64,000 nucleotides of DNA from Gammaproteobacteria bacterium (GCA_965243205.1 CBDEUK010000002.1:2240001-2304000), one strand, 5' to 3'. Positions 14,350-22,928 are shown, numbered from the stretch's first letter. A program made the numbers and translations. Notes: generated by a model from the sequence alone, not told the origin.

Positions 14350-14553
14350 ATGTTAATTTTAACTAGAAGAGTTGGCGAATCGTTGATGATTGGCGATGAT
14401 GTCAATGTTACCGTTCTAGGTATACGTGGTAACCAAGTCAGAATTGGTGTTAATGCACCAAAAGAAGTTTCTGTACACCGCGAAGAAATTTACGAGCGTA
14501 TACAACAAGAAAAGAGCGGCAATGCACCATCGTCTCAAGACGAACAAGAGTAA
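14350..14553 (+). CDS. csrA: carbon storage regulator CsrA/RsmA
   Basis: [17 protein letters not shown]...VHREEIY. Confidence 0.99.
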
Positions 14554-14751
14554 TTAATATCAAGATATTTTTTTAAAAAAAGGATTTTTCTTGTTTAAAC
14601 AAAGCAAAATTTATTGCATTGCATGTGCACGTTAGTAAGGTTGCTATTTAAGCATGCAATATCATAAGTGTAGTTATCTATACCCTTAAATTTTTATTAT
14701 TGTCCTACTTTTTCTAGACTTTCAATGATCTAAAGATAAAATAAAACAAAC

Positions 14752-14875
14752 GGAGAGGTGGCCGACAATTTTGTCAGGAACAAAATTGGACATTTGAGCA
14801 AAGCGAAAATGGTACGAAGTACCGAAGCTCAGGATGAGCTGAGTCAACGGCTGAAGGTAATCGACGAAGTCGATT
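14752..14875 (+). other. truncated tRNA-Ser 5' duplicate with a structured CAGGA-hairpin insert in the D-loop
   Basis: GGAGAGGTGGCCGA [82-nt insert] CGGCTGAAGG matches the 5' end of the downstream tRNA-Ser; ends in the hairpin AATCGAC-GAA-GTCGATT. Confidence 0.85.
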
Positions 14876-14920
14876 TTAAGAGTAAGCTAAACAATATAAT
14901 ATTTTAATAATATATATAAC

Positions 14921-15012
14921 GGAGAGGTGGCCGAGCGGCTGAAGGCGCTCCCCTGCTAAGGGAGTATACGGTTTATCCCGTATCGAGGGTTCGAATCCCT
15001 CTCTCTCCGCCA
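14921..15012 (+). tRNA. tRNA-Ser(GCT)
   Basis: Cloverleaf with anticodon arm CTCCC-ctGCTaa-GGGAG, long variable arm, GGTTCGAATCC and encoded CCA. Confidence 0.97.
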
Positions 15013-15058
15013 TTTGACTATCTCGATCAAATCTATATTATTCGCCGTTCTTAATTAC

Positions 15059-15152
15059 GCGCCCGTAGCTCAGTGGACGACGTGCAGGAGCACAAGTGTC
15101 GCGAGAGGCAGGACGCCGATAGCGACGAGAGTACCGCAACACGAAGTGTTGC
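15059..15152 (+). other. truncated tRNA-Arg 5' duplicate with a structured CAGGA-hairpin insert in the D-loop
   Basis: GCGCCCGTAGCTCAG-TGGA [50-nt insert] AGAGTACC matches the 5' end of tRNA-Arg; ends in the hairpin GCAACAC-GAA-GTGTTGC. Confidence 0.85.
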
Positions 15153-15197
15153 TTAGATAGAACTTAAGTAAGTAACAATTTATACTTTTCATATAAC

Positions 15198-15274
15198 GCG
15201 CCCGTAGCTCAGCTGGATAGAGTACCTGGCTACGAACTAGGGGGTCGGAGGTTCGAATCCTTCCGGGCGCGCCA
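15198..15274 (+). tRNA. tRNA-Arg(ACG)
   Basis: 77-nt cloverleaf with ctACGaa anticodon loop, GGTTCGAATCC and CCA. Confidence 0.97.
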
Positions 15275-15283
15275 TTTAAAATA

Positions 15284-15305
15284 GCCACCTATCAGGTGGT
15301 TTTTT
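15284..15305 (+). terminator. intrinsic terminator after the tRNA cluster
   Basis: GCCACCT-atc-AGGTGGT followed by a T tract. Confidence 0.8.
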
Positions 15306-15482
15306 ATTTCATCAATAGTAAATCGTAATTCAAATACTCCATTTAATAATCATTGATATGCAAGAACTGCTTTGTATTTTTCTTGCAGTTACATAGATGC
15401 TCATCCACTTTAGTAATACCAATAGATAAATCGCAAACATTATCAAATCAATCCTCTTATTATGAAACTCCGAGGTAAATAG

Positions 15483-20894: not shown

Positions 20895-22928
20895 TTAGAA
20901 AAGATATTTAACTTGAAAACGTAACATTCTTGGCTCAATTGGATGGAAGTGTCTATCTTCAATACCTGCTGCAGGCTCTCCGTTTAAACGAGAAGCATAA
21001 AAGTATTCGATATCACTATCATTGCTGTCGAATATATTTAATACATCTAATCCAAACTGCCAATTATCCGGTTTGTAATCAACACCAAGATTTACCACGG
21101 TAAGTGGATCGGATTCTACTTGACCAAAACTATCCAATGGCCGTTCACCAAAGTGTCTTACGCGCACGGTAGTACTCCAATCAGTGTACGGAGACCAAGT
21201 GAAACCAGTACTTAGCACGAATGGTAAGGAACCTTGAATTTCATTACCTTCACCCACAGCATCTTCAGAAAATTCTGACTCAGTCCAAGCGAGTTCAAAA
21301 TCCACACTGAAATCTTTACCTAACCAATAATACGCAGCTAATTCAAGACCATAACGTTCTGAGGAGCGACTGGCTTCGGTATTACCCGCATCACCGACAA
21401 ATAATAATTCAGAATCCAATTGTAAGTACCATAATGCAAGAGAGATATTGAAATGATTCGGATCGAAATAACGGATACCGATTTCTGTTCCTTCCCCACG
21501 AACTAATAAATCAACAGGATCGGTTGGATTACCTGAGCTTGGATCAACTGAGATCGTAGAACCACGTGCGTCGTTAGAATGAAATGATTGGCCCGCGTTG
21601 AAGTAAGTTTCCCAATCTTCGTCAATGGTGTAGCGCAAGCCAGCATTGAAACTGACTAAACTATCATCTGCATCACCACTATTCGCAGCCAAGTTACTAT
21701 CGACTTCTGCAGAGAGATAATCGTAACGCACACCTATTGTTGAAGCTAACTTCTGGGTTAGAGCAATTTCAGTTTCCCAAAACAAGCCAACCGAATATTC
21801 ATCAACACTATCTTGTCTAACAGTACTTAAGCGTTGGCGATTTCGTGTGCGATTTAAAGCAACTTCGTCAATTTCATCATAACGAAATTGAACACCGTAA
21901 TAATGTTGAACAGGTAAGTTTAATAGTGAATGATTCATGTAATGACTGACATCACCACCGTAGATCATACGATCATCTACTTGCTCGAATTGGTCACCAT
22001 TCACAGGGTCGTCTAAGAAATAGGTAAAGTTTGAAAATAGATCTAATTGAGAGTGAATGGCATAAGCATTAACTGTCCAGCCTGAATATTGCCAACTACC
22101 AGATACACTGTAACGTTCAGAATCACCACCAACGGTAGTATCAAGTGAACCTAATTCTGAGATTAATCCGCTATCAACCGCACGTTGAGGAATTTGATCT
22201 GCAGAATTCCATTCATTGTTGTACGCCATAAAGGTTAAAGAAAGTTTGCCTTTGGACAGAGATTTATTCCACCGCGCTAAACCATTAAATTTTTTCACGC
22301 CTTCTTCGATATCATCCCAAGGACCATCATAGAAATGCGACTCTATGCCAAGTAACAATTCACTATCTTCTAATTCAAAACTCTTTCCCGCCACATTACG
22401 AAAAAAATTATATTCACCAATTTCTGATGATATAAATGCATTATCTAGCCTGTTCATTAAAAAGAAATCAGCAGCACCGGCTGTTGAGAAGTCTCCATTC
22501 TCACTGTGGTAAGGTCCTTTTTGATAATCAATGCGATCTATGAATTCGGGAATAATAAAATTAAGGTCGGTATAGCCTTGACCATGACCATGTGTACGCA
22601 TATTAATCGGCATCCCATCAATGGTGGTTCTAAAATCAGTTCCATGATCTAAATTAAACCCACGTAAAAAATACTGATTGGCTTTGCCAGAACCACTGTG
22701 TTGGGTCACTACCATGCCAGGAATAAACTCTAATATTTCGCCAGAACGTAACAAGGGCCGATTTTCAATTTCATTACGACCAATGATGCCCTCTGACGCT
22801 GTAACCGCTTCTCCAATTAAATTAGTTTCATGACCCACAATCACAACTTCATCCAACTCCGCTGAGTGAGCGTGTACATTACTTGATATGCAAGTTGTAG
22901 TGACCAATAACATGGCTTTTTTAATCAT
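20895..22928 (-). CDS. TonB-dependent receptor with a His-rich plug, probably for a transition metal
   Basis: QHSGSGKANQYFLRGFNLDHGTD and THGHGQGY plug motifs, HFHPIEPR, terminal Phe. Confidence 0.9.
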   Translation of the reverse strand: MIKKAMLLVTTTCISSNVHAHSAELDEVVIVGHETNLIGEAVTASEGIIGRNEIENRPLLRSGEILEFIPGMVVTQHSGSGKANQYFLRGFNLDHGTDFRTTIDGMPINMRTHGHGQGYTDLNFIIPEFIDRIDYQKGPYHSENGDFSTAGAADFFLMNRLDNAFISSEIGEYNFFRNVAGKSFELEDSELLLGIESHFYDGPWDDIEEGVKKFNGLARWNKSLSKGKLSLTFMAYNNEWNSADQIPQRAVDSGLISELGSLDTTVGGDSERYSVSGSWQYSGWTVNAYAIHSQLDLFSNFTYFLDDPVNGDQFEQVDDRMIYGGDVSHYMNHSLLNLPVQHYYGVQFRYDEIDEVALNRTRNRQRLSTVRQDSVDEYSVGLFWETEIALTQKLASTIGVRYDYLSAEVDSNLAANSGDADDSLVSFNAGLRYTIDEDWETYFNAGQSFHSNDARGSTISVDPSSGNPTDPVDLLVRGEGTEIGIRYFDPNHFNISLALWYLQLDSELLFVGDAGNTEASRSSERYGLELAAYYWLGKDFSVDFELAWTESEFSEDAVGEGNEIQGSLPFVLSTGFTWSPYTDWSTTVRVRHFGERPLDSFGQVESDPLTVVNLGVDYKPDNWQFGLDVLNIFDSNDSDIEYFYASRLNGEPAAGIEDRHFHPIEPRMLRFQVKYLF

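What the first reader, a model, noticed from the sequence alone, without database searches (positions are those of the whole stretch)
14715..15305. Repeated 'tRNA 5'-duplicate + CAGGA hairpins' leader module before both tRNAs, immediately downstream of csrA
Seen: two different tRNA genes each have the same upstream architecture. It is [copy of the tRNA's own 5' acceptor strand and D-stem] - [multi-hairpin insert in the D-loop with two CAGGA-loop hairpins] - [3' side of the D-arm] - [7-bp cGAAg hairpin replacing the anticodon arm] - [similar linker TTAAG(A)GTAAG..AACAAT...ATATAAC] - [intact tRNA]. Each unit has a promoter-like element just upstream (TAGACT-N16-TAAAAT at 14715-14742; TTGACT-N16-TATTAT at 15014-15041). 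Established: CsrA/RsmA binds ANGGA in hairpin loops, as in CsrB/RsmZ, and csrA is the adjacent gene. Inference: these could be tRNA-leader RNAs that titrate CsrA. Alternatively the duplicate 5' strand could compete for the real tRNA's acceptor 3' strand and switch its processing, or the units could be footprints of a tRNA-targeting non-autonomous element. The two inserts differ in sequence but share structure, which argues against one accidental duplication.
Basis: partly seen in the sequence, partly recalled or inferred. Interest (0 to 1): 0.9.

Follow-up and report, generated by a model that had tools for sequence, protein, structure and literature searches.

The report
tRNA-linked repeats with CsrA-type hairpins
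The two "leaders" are broken copies of each tRNA's front end that carry small repeated hairpin cassettes. They are the same kind of thing as E. coli's long-unexplained tRNA-linked repeats, one type of which is known to bind the regulator CsrA.

Summary
Before tRNA-Ser(GCT) and tRNA-Arg(ACG) lies a copy of that tRNA's first ~26 nt with a structured insert in the D-loop, then a 7-bp GAA-loop hairpin and an AT-rich linker.

The inserts are not private to this locus. They belong to two repeat families that I modelled here.
- R1 (unit 1, ~84 nt, four hairpins) occurs in 88 of 126 genomes of the family and in 74 of 151 sampled families of the class.
- R2 (unit 2, ~50 nt) occurs in 79 of 126 family genomes.
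- Copy number runs from 0 to at least 44 per genome.

Copies sit mostly in D- or T-loops of partial tRNA copies beside intact tRNAs, in sense orientation. Some form tandem arrays. R2 also lies in frame inside ORFs.

R1 hits exactly three places in E. coli K-12: the RrA/RrB/RrF sRNAs after 5S rRNA. These are members of the "tRNA-linked repeats" (TLR), and RrB binds CsrA through GGA loops (PMC8144298). GGA is kept in both R1 loops in 81 of 94 copies.

Adjacency to csrA is inherited synteny; E. coli has the same gene order.

Best reading: TLR-type cassettes, probably mobile in origin, that most likely yield CsrA-binding leader RNAs. It is a new variant of a known kind (5'-side, D-loop form). No RNA data were available.

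The parts
14350..14553 (+). csrA gene (67 aa)
   Evidence: ORF. Pfam CsrA 95.4 bits.
14715..14742 (+). Promoter-like site TAGACT-16-TAAAAT, about 9 nt upstream of unit 1
   Evidence: 9 of 12 matches. This is a consensus match only.
14752..14765 (+). Copy of tRNA-Ser(GCT) nt 1-14 (acceptor 5' strand plus D-stem 5' side)
   Evidence: exact 14-mer repeat, 169 nt upstream of the tRNA.
14764..14847 (+). R1 cassette. It has four hairpins: H1 (9 bp, CAGGA loop), H2, H3 (GAA loop) and H4 (GGA loop).
   Evidence: Covariance model R1 scores 89.6 bits here. Covariation is shown. The same model hits E. coli RrA/B/F.
14848..14857 (+). Copy of the tRNA-Ser D-loop 3' part and D-stem 3' side (CGGCTGAAGG)
   Evidence: RNAfold pairs it with 14760-14764 to close the cassette.
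14859..14875 (+). 7-bp hairpin with a GAA loop, standing where the anticodon arm would start
   Evidence: An equivalent hairpin with a different sequence occurs in relatives.
14876..14920 (+). AT-rich linker to the intact tRNA
   Evidence: It aligns with the unit-2 linker better than all 500 shuffles.
14921..15012 (+). Intact tRNA-Ser(GCT)
15014..15041 (+). Promoter-like site TTGACT-16-TATTAT, directly after tRNA-Ser
   Evidence: 10 of 12 matches. The same sequence block precedes the Arg unit in relatives.
15059..15077 (+). Copy of the tRNA-Arg(ACG) 5' end (acceptor 5' strand, D-stem 5' side, start of D-loop)
15078..15127 (+). R2 cassette: a GGA-loop hairpin, then a 5-bp helix enclosing a second GGA-loop hairpin
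   Evidence: Model R2 scores 62.6 bits here.
15128..15135 (+). Copy of the tRNA-Arg D-arm 3' side (AGAGTACC)
15136..15152 (+). 7-bp hairpin with a GAA loop
15153..15197 (+). AT-rich linker
15198..15274 (+). Intact tRNA-Arg(ACG)
15283..15301 (+). Intrinsic-terminator-like hairpin plus T run, ending the tRNA operon

Best explanation
Each 'leader' is a partial upstream copy of its tRNA (nt 1 to about 26). Its D-loop carries one cassette of a widespread repeat family: R1 before tRNA-Ser and R2 before tRNA-Arg. These are the gammaproteobacterial relatives of E. coli's tRNA-linked repeats (TLR). R1 is the conserved core of the E. coli sRNAs RrA/RrB/RrF.

Shown here:
- Both inserts belong to repeat families.
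- The cassettes are structured and strand-specific.
- GGA is conserved in the loops.
- The cassettes are associated with tRNAs, in the tRNA's orientation.
- R1 is homologous to RrA/B/F.

Inferred:
- The tRNA promoter upstream of each unit transcribes fragment, cassette, hairpin, linker and tRNA as one precursor.
- RNase P cleavage at the tRNA 5' end releases the leader.
- The leader's two GGA loops bind a CsrA dimer, as the homologous RrB does.
- A small CsrA-titrating RNA is therefore made in step with stable-RNA transcription.
- The tRNA-derived flanks provide the closing helix for the cassette, and perhaps handles for processing.

The cassettes themselves probably arrived as mobile or recombining DNA. 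The position next to csrA is inherited synteny, not a dedicated circuit.
For: Repeat families:
- R1 is found in 88 of 126 family genomes and in 74 of 151 class-level genomes, one per family. Without the two unpublished genomes G164 and G266 the class count is 72 of 149.
- R2 is found in 79 of 126 family genomes.

Structure:
- On 94 distinct R1 copies, 94.4% of cells are paired and 17 of 17 pairs show compensatory changes.
- None of 500 shuffles reach the observed values, and slid controls give 19-43% paired.
- There are 52 G:U-type pairs against 6 A:C-type, so one strand carries the structure.

Loops:
- GGA is present in the H1 loop in 86 of 94 copies, in the H4 loop in 83 of 94, and in both in 81 of 94.
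- R2, a different fold, also carries two GGA-loop hairpins.

tRNA link:
- Of 97 distinct R1 copies in my loci, 69 have a tRNA within 400 nt, and 67 of those 69 are on the same strand.
- 24 have a copy of the downstream tRNA's 5' end just upstream.

Known homologue:
- R1 hits E. coli K-12 only downstream of rrfA, rrfB and rrfF at E <= 0.01 (47.6 bits each). A fourth, weak match had E 0.06.
- These are RrA/B/F, which are TLR members. RrB binds CsrA with KD about 100 nM, and a triple GGA mutant loses binding (PMC8144298, sections 3 and 24 read).
- In rrnB the cassette sits inside a copy of the 5S 3' end, with the same junction as here.

Context:
- No CsrB, RsmZ or RsmY reaches its Rfam threshold in this genome, so other CsrA antagonists are not evident.
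- Promoter-like sites precede both units.
Against: - No transcript data exist for this organism, so transcription, processing and CsrA binding are all inferred.
- Six of 94 R1 copies lack GGA in both loops, including the csrA-adjacent Ser unit of G016.
- In E. coli, deletion or overexpression of rrA/B/F changes CsrA phenotypes only modestly, and the other 19 TLRs score below 0.01 as predicted CsrA binders (PMC8144298, sections 24 and 27).
- Copy numbers swing from 2 in this genome to 39 R2 copies in the same-genus genome G001.
- Three of 8 tested non-tRNA R2 copies lie in frame in ORFs. The same-genus genome has a different arrangement at this locus. All of this fits selfish spread as well as function.
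- R1 occurs in 9 of 28 sampled genomes in which no csrA was found, against 65 of 123 with csrA. Most of those 9 are fragmented assemblies.
- The fold energy of unit 2 is not exceptional.
- The region has no excess of promoter-like sites over shuffles.
Confidence: 0.55

Rival explanations
1. Selfish footprints only. R1 and R2 are small non-autonomous mobile palindromic elements that favour exposed loops of stable-RNA genes. The partial tRNA copies are debris of insertion into one copy of a local duplication. The units have no host function in this genome. The GGA loops would serve the element, for example in recognition by its mobilising enzyme, rather than CsrA.
For: - Copy number ranges from 0 to at least 36 (R1) and at least 44 (R2), both scoring caps, among related genomes.
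- Tandem arrays occur with periods of 155-175 nt.
- R2 is nested inside R1.
- R2 lies in frame in a class-I tRNA synthetase gene, a DUF7948 gene and a Toprim gene, that is 3 of 8 tested copies.
- Junctions are precise.
- The arrangement at this locus differs in the same genus.
Against: - No mobilising gene has been identified. The Y1 transposase is present in 61 of 126 genomes and does not track copy number: G065 has at least 36 R1 copies and none, while G001 has 4 R1 copies and 23 transposase hits.
- No terminal inverted repeats or target duplications are seen.
- Two structurally different cassettes share only the GGA-loop hairpins.
- The E. coli homologue binds CsrA specifically (PMC8144298).
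- The same Gly-linked copy is kept in two genera.
Confidence: 0.3
2. Processing switch. The duplicated 5' acceptor strand of the leader pairs with the 3' acceptor strand of the downstream tRNA. This holds the precursor in a fold that RNase P cannot mature at the true 5' end. Protein binding to the cassette would shift the balance.
For: - RNAfold puts the leader copy, not the tRNA's own 5' strand, on the 3' acceptor strand in the minimum-energy fold of both precursors. For Ser the energies are -85.1 against -79.9 kcal/mol with the real stem enforced. For Arg they are -73.5 against -65.6 kcal/mol.
- In each relative the leader copy tracks the sequence of its own tRNA isoacceptor.
Against: - Nearest-neighbour folding ignores tRNA tertiary structure, modifications and co-transcriptional order.
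- The common 3'-side form of the repeats (E. coli TLRs, and this genome's Thr-linked copy) has no such decoy strand.
- Many copies are mismatched to their tRNA.
- Nothing experimental supports it.
Confidence: 0.1
3. Chance or a one-off accidental duplication with no wider meaning.
For: Within this genome each insert is nearly unique.
Against: The same cassettes and the same architecture recur in dozens of genera, with covariation.
Confidence: 0.01

Closest known systems
E. coli RrA/RrB/RrF sRNAs (TLRs between the dual terminators of rrnA, rrnB and rrnD; PMC8144298)
   Same: The four-hairpin core is the same: H1 with a GGA loop, H2, H3 and H4 with a GGA loop (47.6 bits to R1). The cassette is embedded in a copy of a stable-RNA end with the same junction. 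It is co-transcribed with stable RNA. CsrA binding through GGA loops has been shown for RrB.
   Different: RrA/B/F lie downstream of 5S rRNA after a leaky terminator, and repeat its 3' end. Unit 1 lies upstream of a tRNA, repeats the tRNA's 5' end, and sits in a D-loop. Unit 2 (R2) has no match in E. coli K-12 at E <= 1.
E. coli tRNA-linked repeats in tRNA operons (Egan and Landy 1978 and Rudd 1999, both cited through PMC8144298 and not read)
   Same: They are repeats inside tRNA operons that carry a piece of the neighbouring tRNA. The csrA-adjacent serV-argV-argY-argZ-argQ operon of E. coli has them after argV and argZ, with recognisable H2, H3 and tail of R1. This genome's Thr-linked copy (contig C2 664048-664125) has the classic form.
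   Different: The hallmark of E. coli TLRs is 18-19 bp of the upstream tRNA's 3' end. The window's units instead copy the downstream tRNA's 5' part. The E. coli arg TLRs have lost the GGA loops.
CsrB/CsrC/RsmY/RsmZ sponge sRNAs
   Same: GGA motifs presented in hairpin loops. The proposed action is titration of CsrA.
   Different: There are no Rfam matches. Each unit has only two sites. There is no own terminator. The units lie inside tRNA transcription units. Whether a GacA/UvrY-type promoter is present was not tested.
3'ETS-leuZ of E. coli (tRNA-operon spacer acting as an sRNA sponge; named in PMC8144298, section 3)
   Same: A regulatory RNA made as a by-product of tRNA precursor processing.
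   Different: It sponges sRNAs by base pairing and does not bind a protein. It is a 3' spacer and carries no repeated cassette.
Palindromic repeat elements that insert in frame into genes (Rickettsia palindromic elements, recalled and not checked here) and the QMITEs of Coxiella (PMC5896051, passages read)
   Same: They are small structured repeats with very variable copy number. R2 lies in frame in ORFs.
   Different: QMITEs have terminal inverted repeats and 7-9 bp direct repeats, and none is seen here. Neither family is reported to be tied to tRNA loops or to carry GGA-loop hairpins.

Membership tests
tRNA-linked repeats (TLR) | Located inside a tRNA or rRNA operon | tested here: met
   Both units lie between a promoter-like site and an intact tRNA in the csrA-Ser-Arg cluster.
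tRNA-linked repeats (TLR) | [quoted passage not shown] | tested here: not met
   The window's units repeat the 5' part (14 + 10 nt and 19 + 8 nt) of the downstream tRNA. The feature is met by this genome's other R1 copy: 17 nt of the tRNA-Thr 3' end.
RrA/RrB/RrF | Conserved sequence and secondary structure of the sRNA core | tested here: met
   This holds for unit 1 only. R1, built without any E. coli sequence, scores 89.6 bits on unit 1 and 47.6 bits on each of rrA, rrB and rrF. R2 (unit 2) finds nothing in E. coli K-12.
RrA/RrB/RrF | Lies between two terminators downstream of 5S and is made by read-through | tested here: not met
   The units are upstream of tRNAs. No terminator-like site separates them from the tRNA.
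RrA/RrB/RrF | Binds CsrA through GGA motifs in single-stranded or loop positions | not testable with these tools
   GGA loops are present and conserved (81 of 94 copies). Binding itself needs EMSA or CLIP.
CsrB/RsmY/RsmZ-type sponges | Match to the curated RNA families | tested here: not met
   No match in the window at gathering score, nor at E <= 10 over 14554-15320. In the whole genome, none is above the cut-off for RF00018, RF00166 or RF00195.
CsrB/RsmY/RsmZ-type sponges | Promoter activated by the GacA/UvrY-type response regulator | not tested
   The motif search could not be run. The question stays open.
MITE | Terminal inverted repeats and target-site duplication | tested here: not met
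   Junctions in D-loops, T-arms, ORFs and inside R1 are precise and have no flanking direct repeat. This was judged by eye on the printed flanks of the R2 copies (28 shown) and the R1 copies, not by a formal scan.
REP/RAYT-type repeats | Co-occurrence with a Y1 (RAYT/IS200-type) transposase | tested here: inconclusive
   PF01797 is present in 61 of 126 family genomes. About 47 of the 88 R1-positive genomes have it, against 14 of the 38 R1-negative ones. The genome with the most copies (G065) has none.

The most novel reading that the evidence does not exclude
The TLR/RrB-type cassettes are an ancient, class-wide family of mobile CsrA-binding RNA modules. They home into the D- and T-loops of stable-RNA genes (tRNAs, 5S) while leaving an intact gene copy beside them. 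Bacteria thereby acquire, lose and amplify growth-rate-coupled CsrA sponges as cassettes. In the 5'-side form found here, the decoy acceptor strand additionally gates maturation of the downstream tRNA.
Probability: 0.2. Interest if true: 0.85.

Novelty: new variant of a known kind. Interest (0 to 1): 0.6.

Why it matters
tRNA-linked repeats have been known in E. coli since 1978 and, apart from RrA/B/F, have no assigned function. PMC8144298 reports conservation of RrA/B/F only within Enterobacteriales.

This locus led to three results.
- The same cassette occurs in about half of the sampled gammaproteobacterial families.
- Its two GGA loops are kept in most copies.
- It comes in 5'-side (D-loop) and 3'-side (T-loop) forms and in arrays, and a second cassette type behaves like mobile DNA.

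If the CsrA link holds, many bacteria that lack recognisable CsrB/Rsm RNAs may tune CsrA with cassettes tied to stable-RNA synthesis. The origin of TLRs also becomes a tractable comparative question.

Tried and rejected
- RNA evidence. The run search found no clear RNA run of this organism. Laying three 'RNA?' runs of the same species label gave no contig on the stretch. The one DNA holder shows only presence. One of its contigs, from a more abundant organism, joins tRNA-Ser to tRNA-Arg with 39 other letters and no unit 2. Coming from a metagenome, it is not used as evidence.
- REP or MITE within this genome. BLAST of both units finds no further copies. The models find one extra copy each.
- A crude genome scan for clusters of GGA hairpins returned coding regions and was dropped.
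- Y1 transposase as mobiliser: no clear association.
- Phyletic link of R1 to csrA: weak and confounded.
- Dot/Icm marker PF11393 to place the organism: no hit, but the control rang nowhere, so it is uninformative.
- Organism name. The aspartokinase-based search returned only MAGs labelled Gammaproteobacteria, Legionellales or Thiotrichales.
- Literature. The searches, and a search for the cassette sequence itself, found no description of this cassette outside PMC8144298. 'tRNA-linked repeat' occurs in only that paper of the library. Rudd 1999 and Egan and Landy 1978 were not readable here. The supplements of PMC8144298 (TLR list, BLAST conservation) were not seen. Either may bear on how new the wide distribution is.
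- A search for a response-regulator box upstream of the units could not be run.
- The enforced 'leader copy' energies were mis-registered: the Ser figure and the Arg figure. Neither is used.

Full report
What is there

The window carries recA, recX, alaS, a 408-aa aspartokinase-like ORF, csrA (14350-14553), tRNA-Ser(GCT) (14921-15012) and tRNA-Arg(ACG) (15198-15274).
- Unit 1 repeats tRNA-Ser nt 1-14 (14752-14765). An 84-nt insert follows, then the D-arm 3' side (14848-14857), a 7-bp GAA-loop hairpin (14859-14875) and an AT-rich linker.
- Unit 2 repeats the tRNA-Arg 5' end (15059-15077). A 50-nt insert follows (15078-15127), then AGAGTACC (15128-15135), a GAA-loop hairpin (15136-15152) and a linker.
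- CAGGA occurs four times in the two inserts, against about 0.1 expected.
- The linkers align better than all 500 shuffles.
- Of the 43 tRNA/tmRNA genes of the genome, only these two have a copy of their own 5' end upstream.
The region as a whole has no excess of such sites (4 against 2.5 +/- 1.5 in shuffles).
- RNAfold closes the unit-1 insert with the D-stem copy into a four-hairpin junction (z -2.8). The fold energy of unit 2 is unremarkable (z -0.8).

The inserts are members of repeat families

Within this genome the inserts look unique by BLAST. Relatives showed the same architecture before other Ser and Arg isoacceptors.

R1 family:
- I aligned 14 copies of the unit-1 type (A1). Twelve of 17 predicted pairs had compensatory changes. 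I built model R1 from this alignment.
- R1 finds two copies in this genome: unit 1, and one downstream of tRNA-Thr(CGT) on contig C2 at 664048-664125.
- It finds copies in 74 of 151 genomes sampled one per family across the class. Two of the positives, G164 and G266, are unpublished; without them the count is 72 of 149.
- On 94 distinct copies, 94.4% of cells pair and all 17 pairs show compensatory change. No shuffle reaches the observed values, and slid controls give 19-43%.
- There are 52 G:U-type pairs against 6 A:C-type, so the structure belongs to one strand.

R2 family:
- The unit-2 insert defines a second family (A3, R2).
- The same-genus genome G001 has 39 copies, and this genome has 2.
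- The second copy in this genome lies just after a groEL-like gene, outside the window.

Where the copies sit
- Of 97 distinct R1 copies in the loci I held, 69 have a tRNA within 400 nt, and 67 of these 69 are on the tRNA's strand. This sample is biased towards the best-scoring matches.
- Twenty-four have a copy of the downstream tRNA's 5' end just upstream, as in the window.
- Other copies lie after a tRNA and its terminator. They sit inside a T-arm remnant that ends in the tRNA's 3' end and is followed by another terminator.
- Some copies interrupt nearly full pseudo-tRNAs. One pseudo-tRNA-Ser carries inserts in both the D-loop and the T-loop.
- Both forms amplify in tandem: five units of 174 nt after a tRNA-Ser, and three 5'-side units before another.
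- About a fifth of copies are in ordinary intergenic regions, sometimes as inverted pairs.
- R2 is also found nested in R1. Three of 8 tested non-tRNA R2 copies lie in frame inside ORFs: a class-I tRNA synthetase, a DUF7948 protein and a Toprim protein.
- Junctions are precise and have no visible target duplication.
- The Y1 transposase (61 of 126 genomes) does not track copy number.

The known relative

R1 was built without any E. coli sequence. At E <= 0.01 it hits E. coli K-12 in exactly three places, at 47.6 bits each: downstream of rrfA, rrfB and rrfF. A fourth, weak match had E 0.06. The three places are the sRNAs RrA, RrB and RrF of Stenum et al. 2021 (PMC8144298; abstract and sections 3, 23, 24 and 27 read).

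The paper states the following.
- They belong to the 'tRNA-linked repeats', first seen in 1978. There are 22 in E. coli. Their hallmark is 18-19 bp identical to the 3' end of the upstream tRNA or rRNA, and they otherwise have no known function.
- RrB is made by read-through of terminator T1.
- RrB co-purifies with CsrA and binds it at about 100 nM. It loses binding when three GGA motifs are mutated.
- Knock-out and overexpression phenotypes are modest.
- Conservation was reported only within Enterobacteriales.

In rrnB the cassette sits inside a copy of the 5S 3' end, with the same junction as in the window. The E. coli operon next to csrA (serV-argV-argY-argZ-argQ) also has such repeats after argV and argZ. 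They keep H2, H3 and the tail of R1 but have no GGA loops. R2 has no E. coli match.

CsrA
- In R1, GGA is in the H1 loop in 86 of 94 copies, in the H4 loop in 83, in both in 81 and in neither in 6.
- R2, a different fold, again presents two GGA-loop hairpins.
- This genome has two csrA genes and no CsrB, RsmZ or RsmY above threshold.
- Against a strict dependence, R1 is found in 9 of 28 sampled genomes without a detected csrA, against 65 of 123 with one. Most of the nine are fragmented assemblies, and none of the ten near-complete csrA-less genomes has R1. This is weak and phylogenetically confounded.
- The position beside csrA is explained by inherited gene order.

How it most likely works

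Shown: the two inserts are TLR-type cassettes, unit 1 is homologous to a CsrA-binding sRNA, and both are embedded in a copy of the downstream tRNA's 5' part.

Inferred:
- The tRNA promoter transcribes leader and tRNA together.
- RNase P releases the leader.
- The leader's two GGA loops bind a CsrA dimer, so CsrA is titrated a little in step with stable-RNA synthesis.

The cassettes probably spread as DNA. The architecture U-a-insert-b-linker-a-b-c is what a single crossover of a small circle, or unequal exchange between short tRNA repeats, would give. In several relatives the duplicated unit includes the upstream promoter region.

A purely selfish reading fits the copy-number swings, the in-ORF copies and the different arrangement in the same genus. 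I give it 0.3.

The decoy-strand idea is energetically allowed: the minimum-energy folds of both precursors put the leader copy on the tRNA's 3' strand. It rests on nearest-neighbour folding alone, and I give it 0.1.

No RNA data could be had.

Verdict

This is a real feature, correctly described. The csrA adjacency is incidental, and the 'non-autonomous element' alternative is also partly right.

It is a new variant of a known kind. It fails the TLR hallmark, because the repeat is of the 5' end of the downstream tRNA and not the 3' end of the upstream one, but it carries the same cassette.

The wider result may be new: class-wide distribution, conserved GGA loops, D- and T-loop forms, and a second cassette that enters ORFs. 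I found no description in the searches. However, Rudd 1999, Egan and Landy 1978 and the paper's supplements could not be read.

Noticed in passing
Own genome contig C2 664048-664125 (-), outside the window: A second R1 copy in the classic TLR form. It follows tRNA-Thr(CGT) and its terminator, ends in 17 nt of the tRNA-Thr 3' end, and has its own terminator.
   Followed up: yes
Own genome contig C2 1432507-1432557 (-), outside the window: A second R2 copy, directly after the Gly-Gly-Met tail and stop codon of a groEL-like gene and before its terminator. The best sub-threshold RsmY match of the genome (25.8 bits) overlaps it.
   Followed up: partly
Own genome contig C1 26538-26693 (-): A second csrA gene (89 bits) on the 460-kb replicon.
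   Followed up: no
Loci L174, L180, L182, L185, L186, L191 and others, 15-30 nt upstream of 3'-side R1 copies; also downstream of some 5'-side copies (L156, L159, L187): A recurrent short hairpin whose 7-nt loop reads ATGAGAA or GTGAGAA, closed by G-C pairs. It is conserved across families. It looks like a degenerate T-arm or an anticodon-arm mimic, and its role is unknown.
   Followed up: partly
L149 (G085 contig C190) 1480-1870: A nearly whole pseudo-tRNA-Ser(GCT) with an R1 copy in the D-loop and a long multi-hairpin insert, including an R2 copy, in the T-loop. The start of an intact tRNA-Ser follows at the contig end.
   Followed up: partly
Window 21867-21950: A weak R1 match (19.1 bits, E 0.44), probably chance.
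   Followed up: no
Window 14611-14667: An imperfect palindrome built on ATTGCATGC...GCATGCAAT, lying between csrA and unit 1. It could be a protein-binding site or the csrA terminator region.
   Followed up: no
Own genome contig C2 1024569-1024724 and contig C1 284365-284456: ARAGORN calls an 84-nt tRNA-Ile(TAT) abutting a tRNA-Met, and a 92-nt tRNA-Cys. These are odd lengths that may be miscalls or unusual tRNAs.
   Followed up: no
E. coli K-12 NC_000913.3 2818276-2818472 and 2817861-2818058: The 198-nt spacers after argV and argZ, next to csrA, are TLRs that keep the R1 hairpins H2 and H3 and the tail but have a GCAA loop where GGA stands elsewhere.
   Followed up: partly
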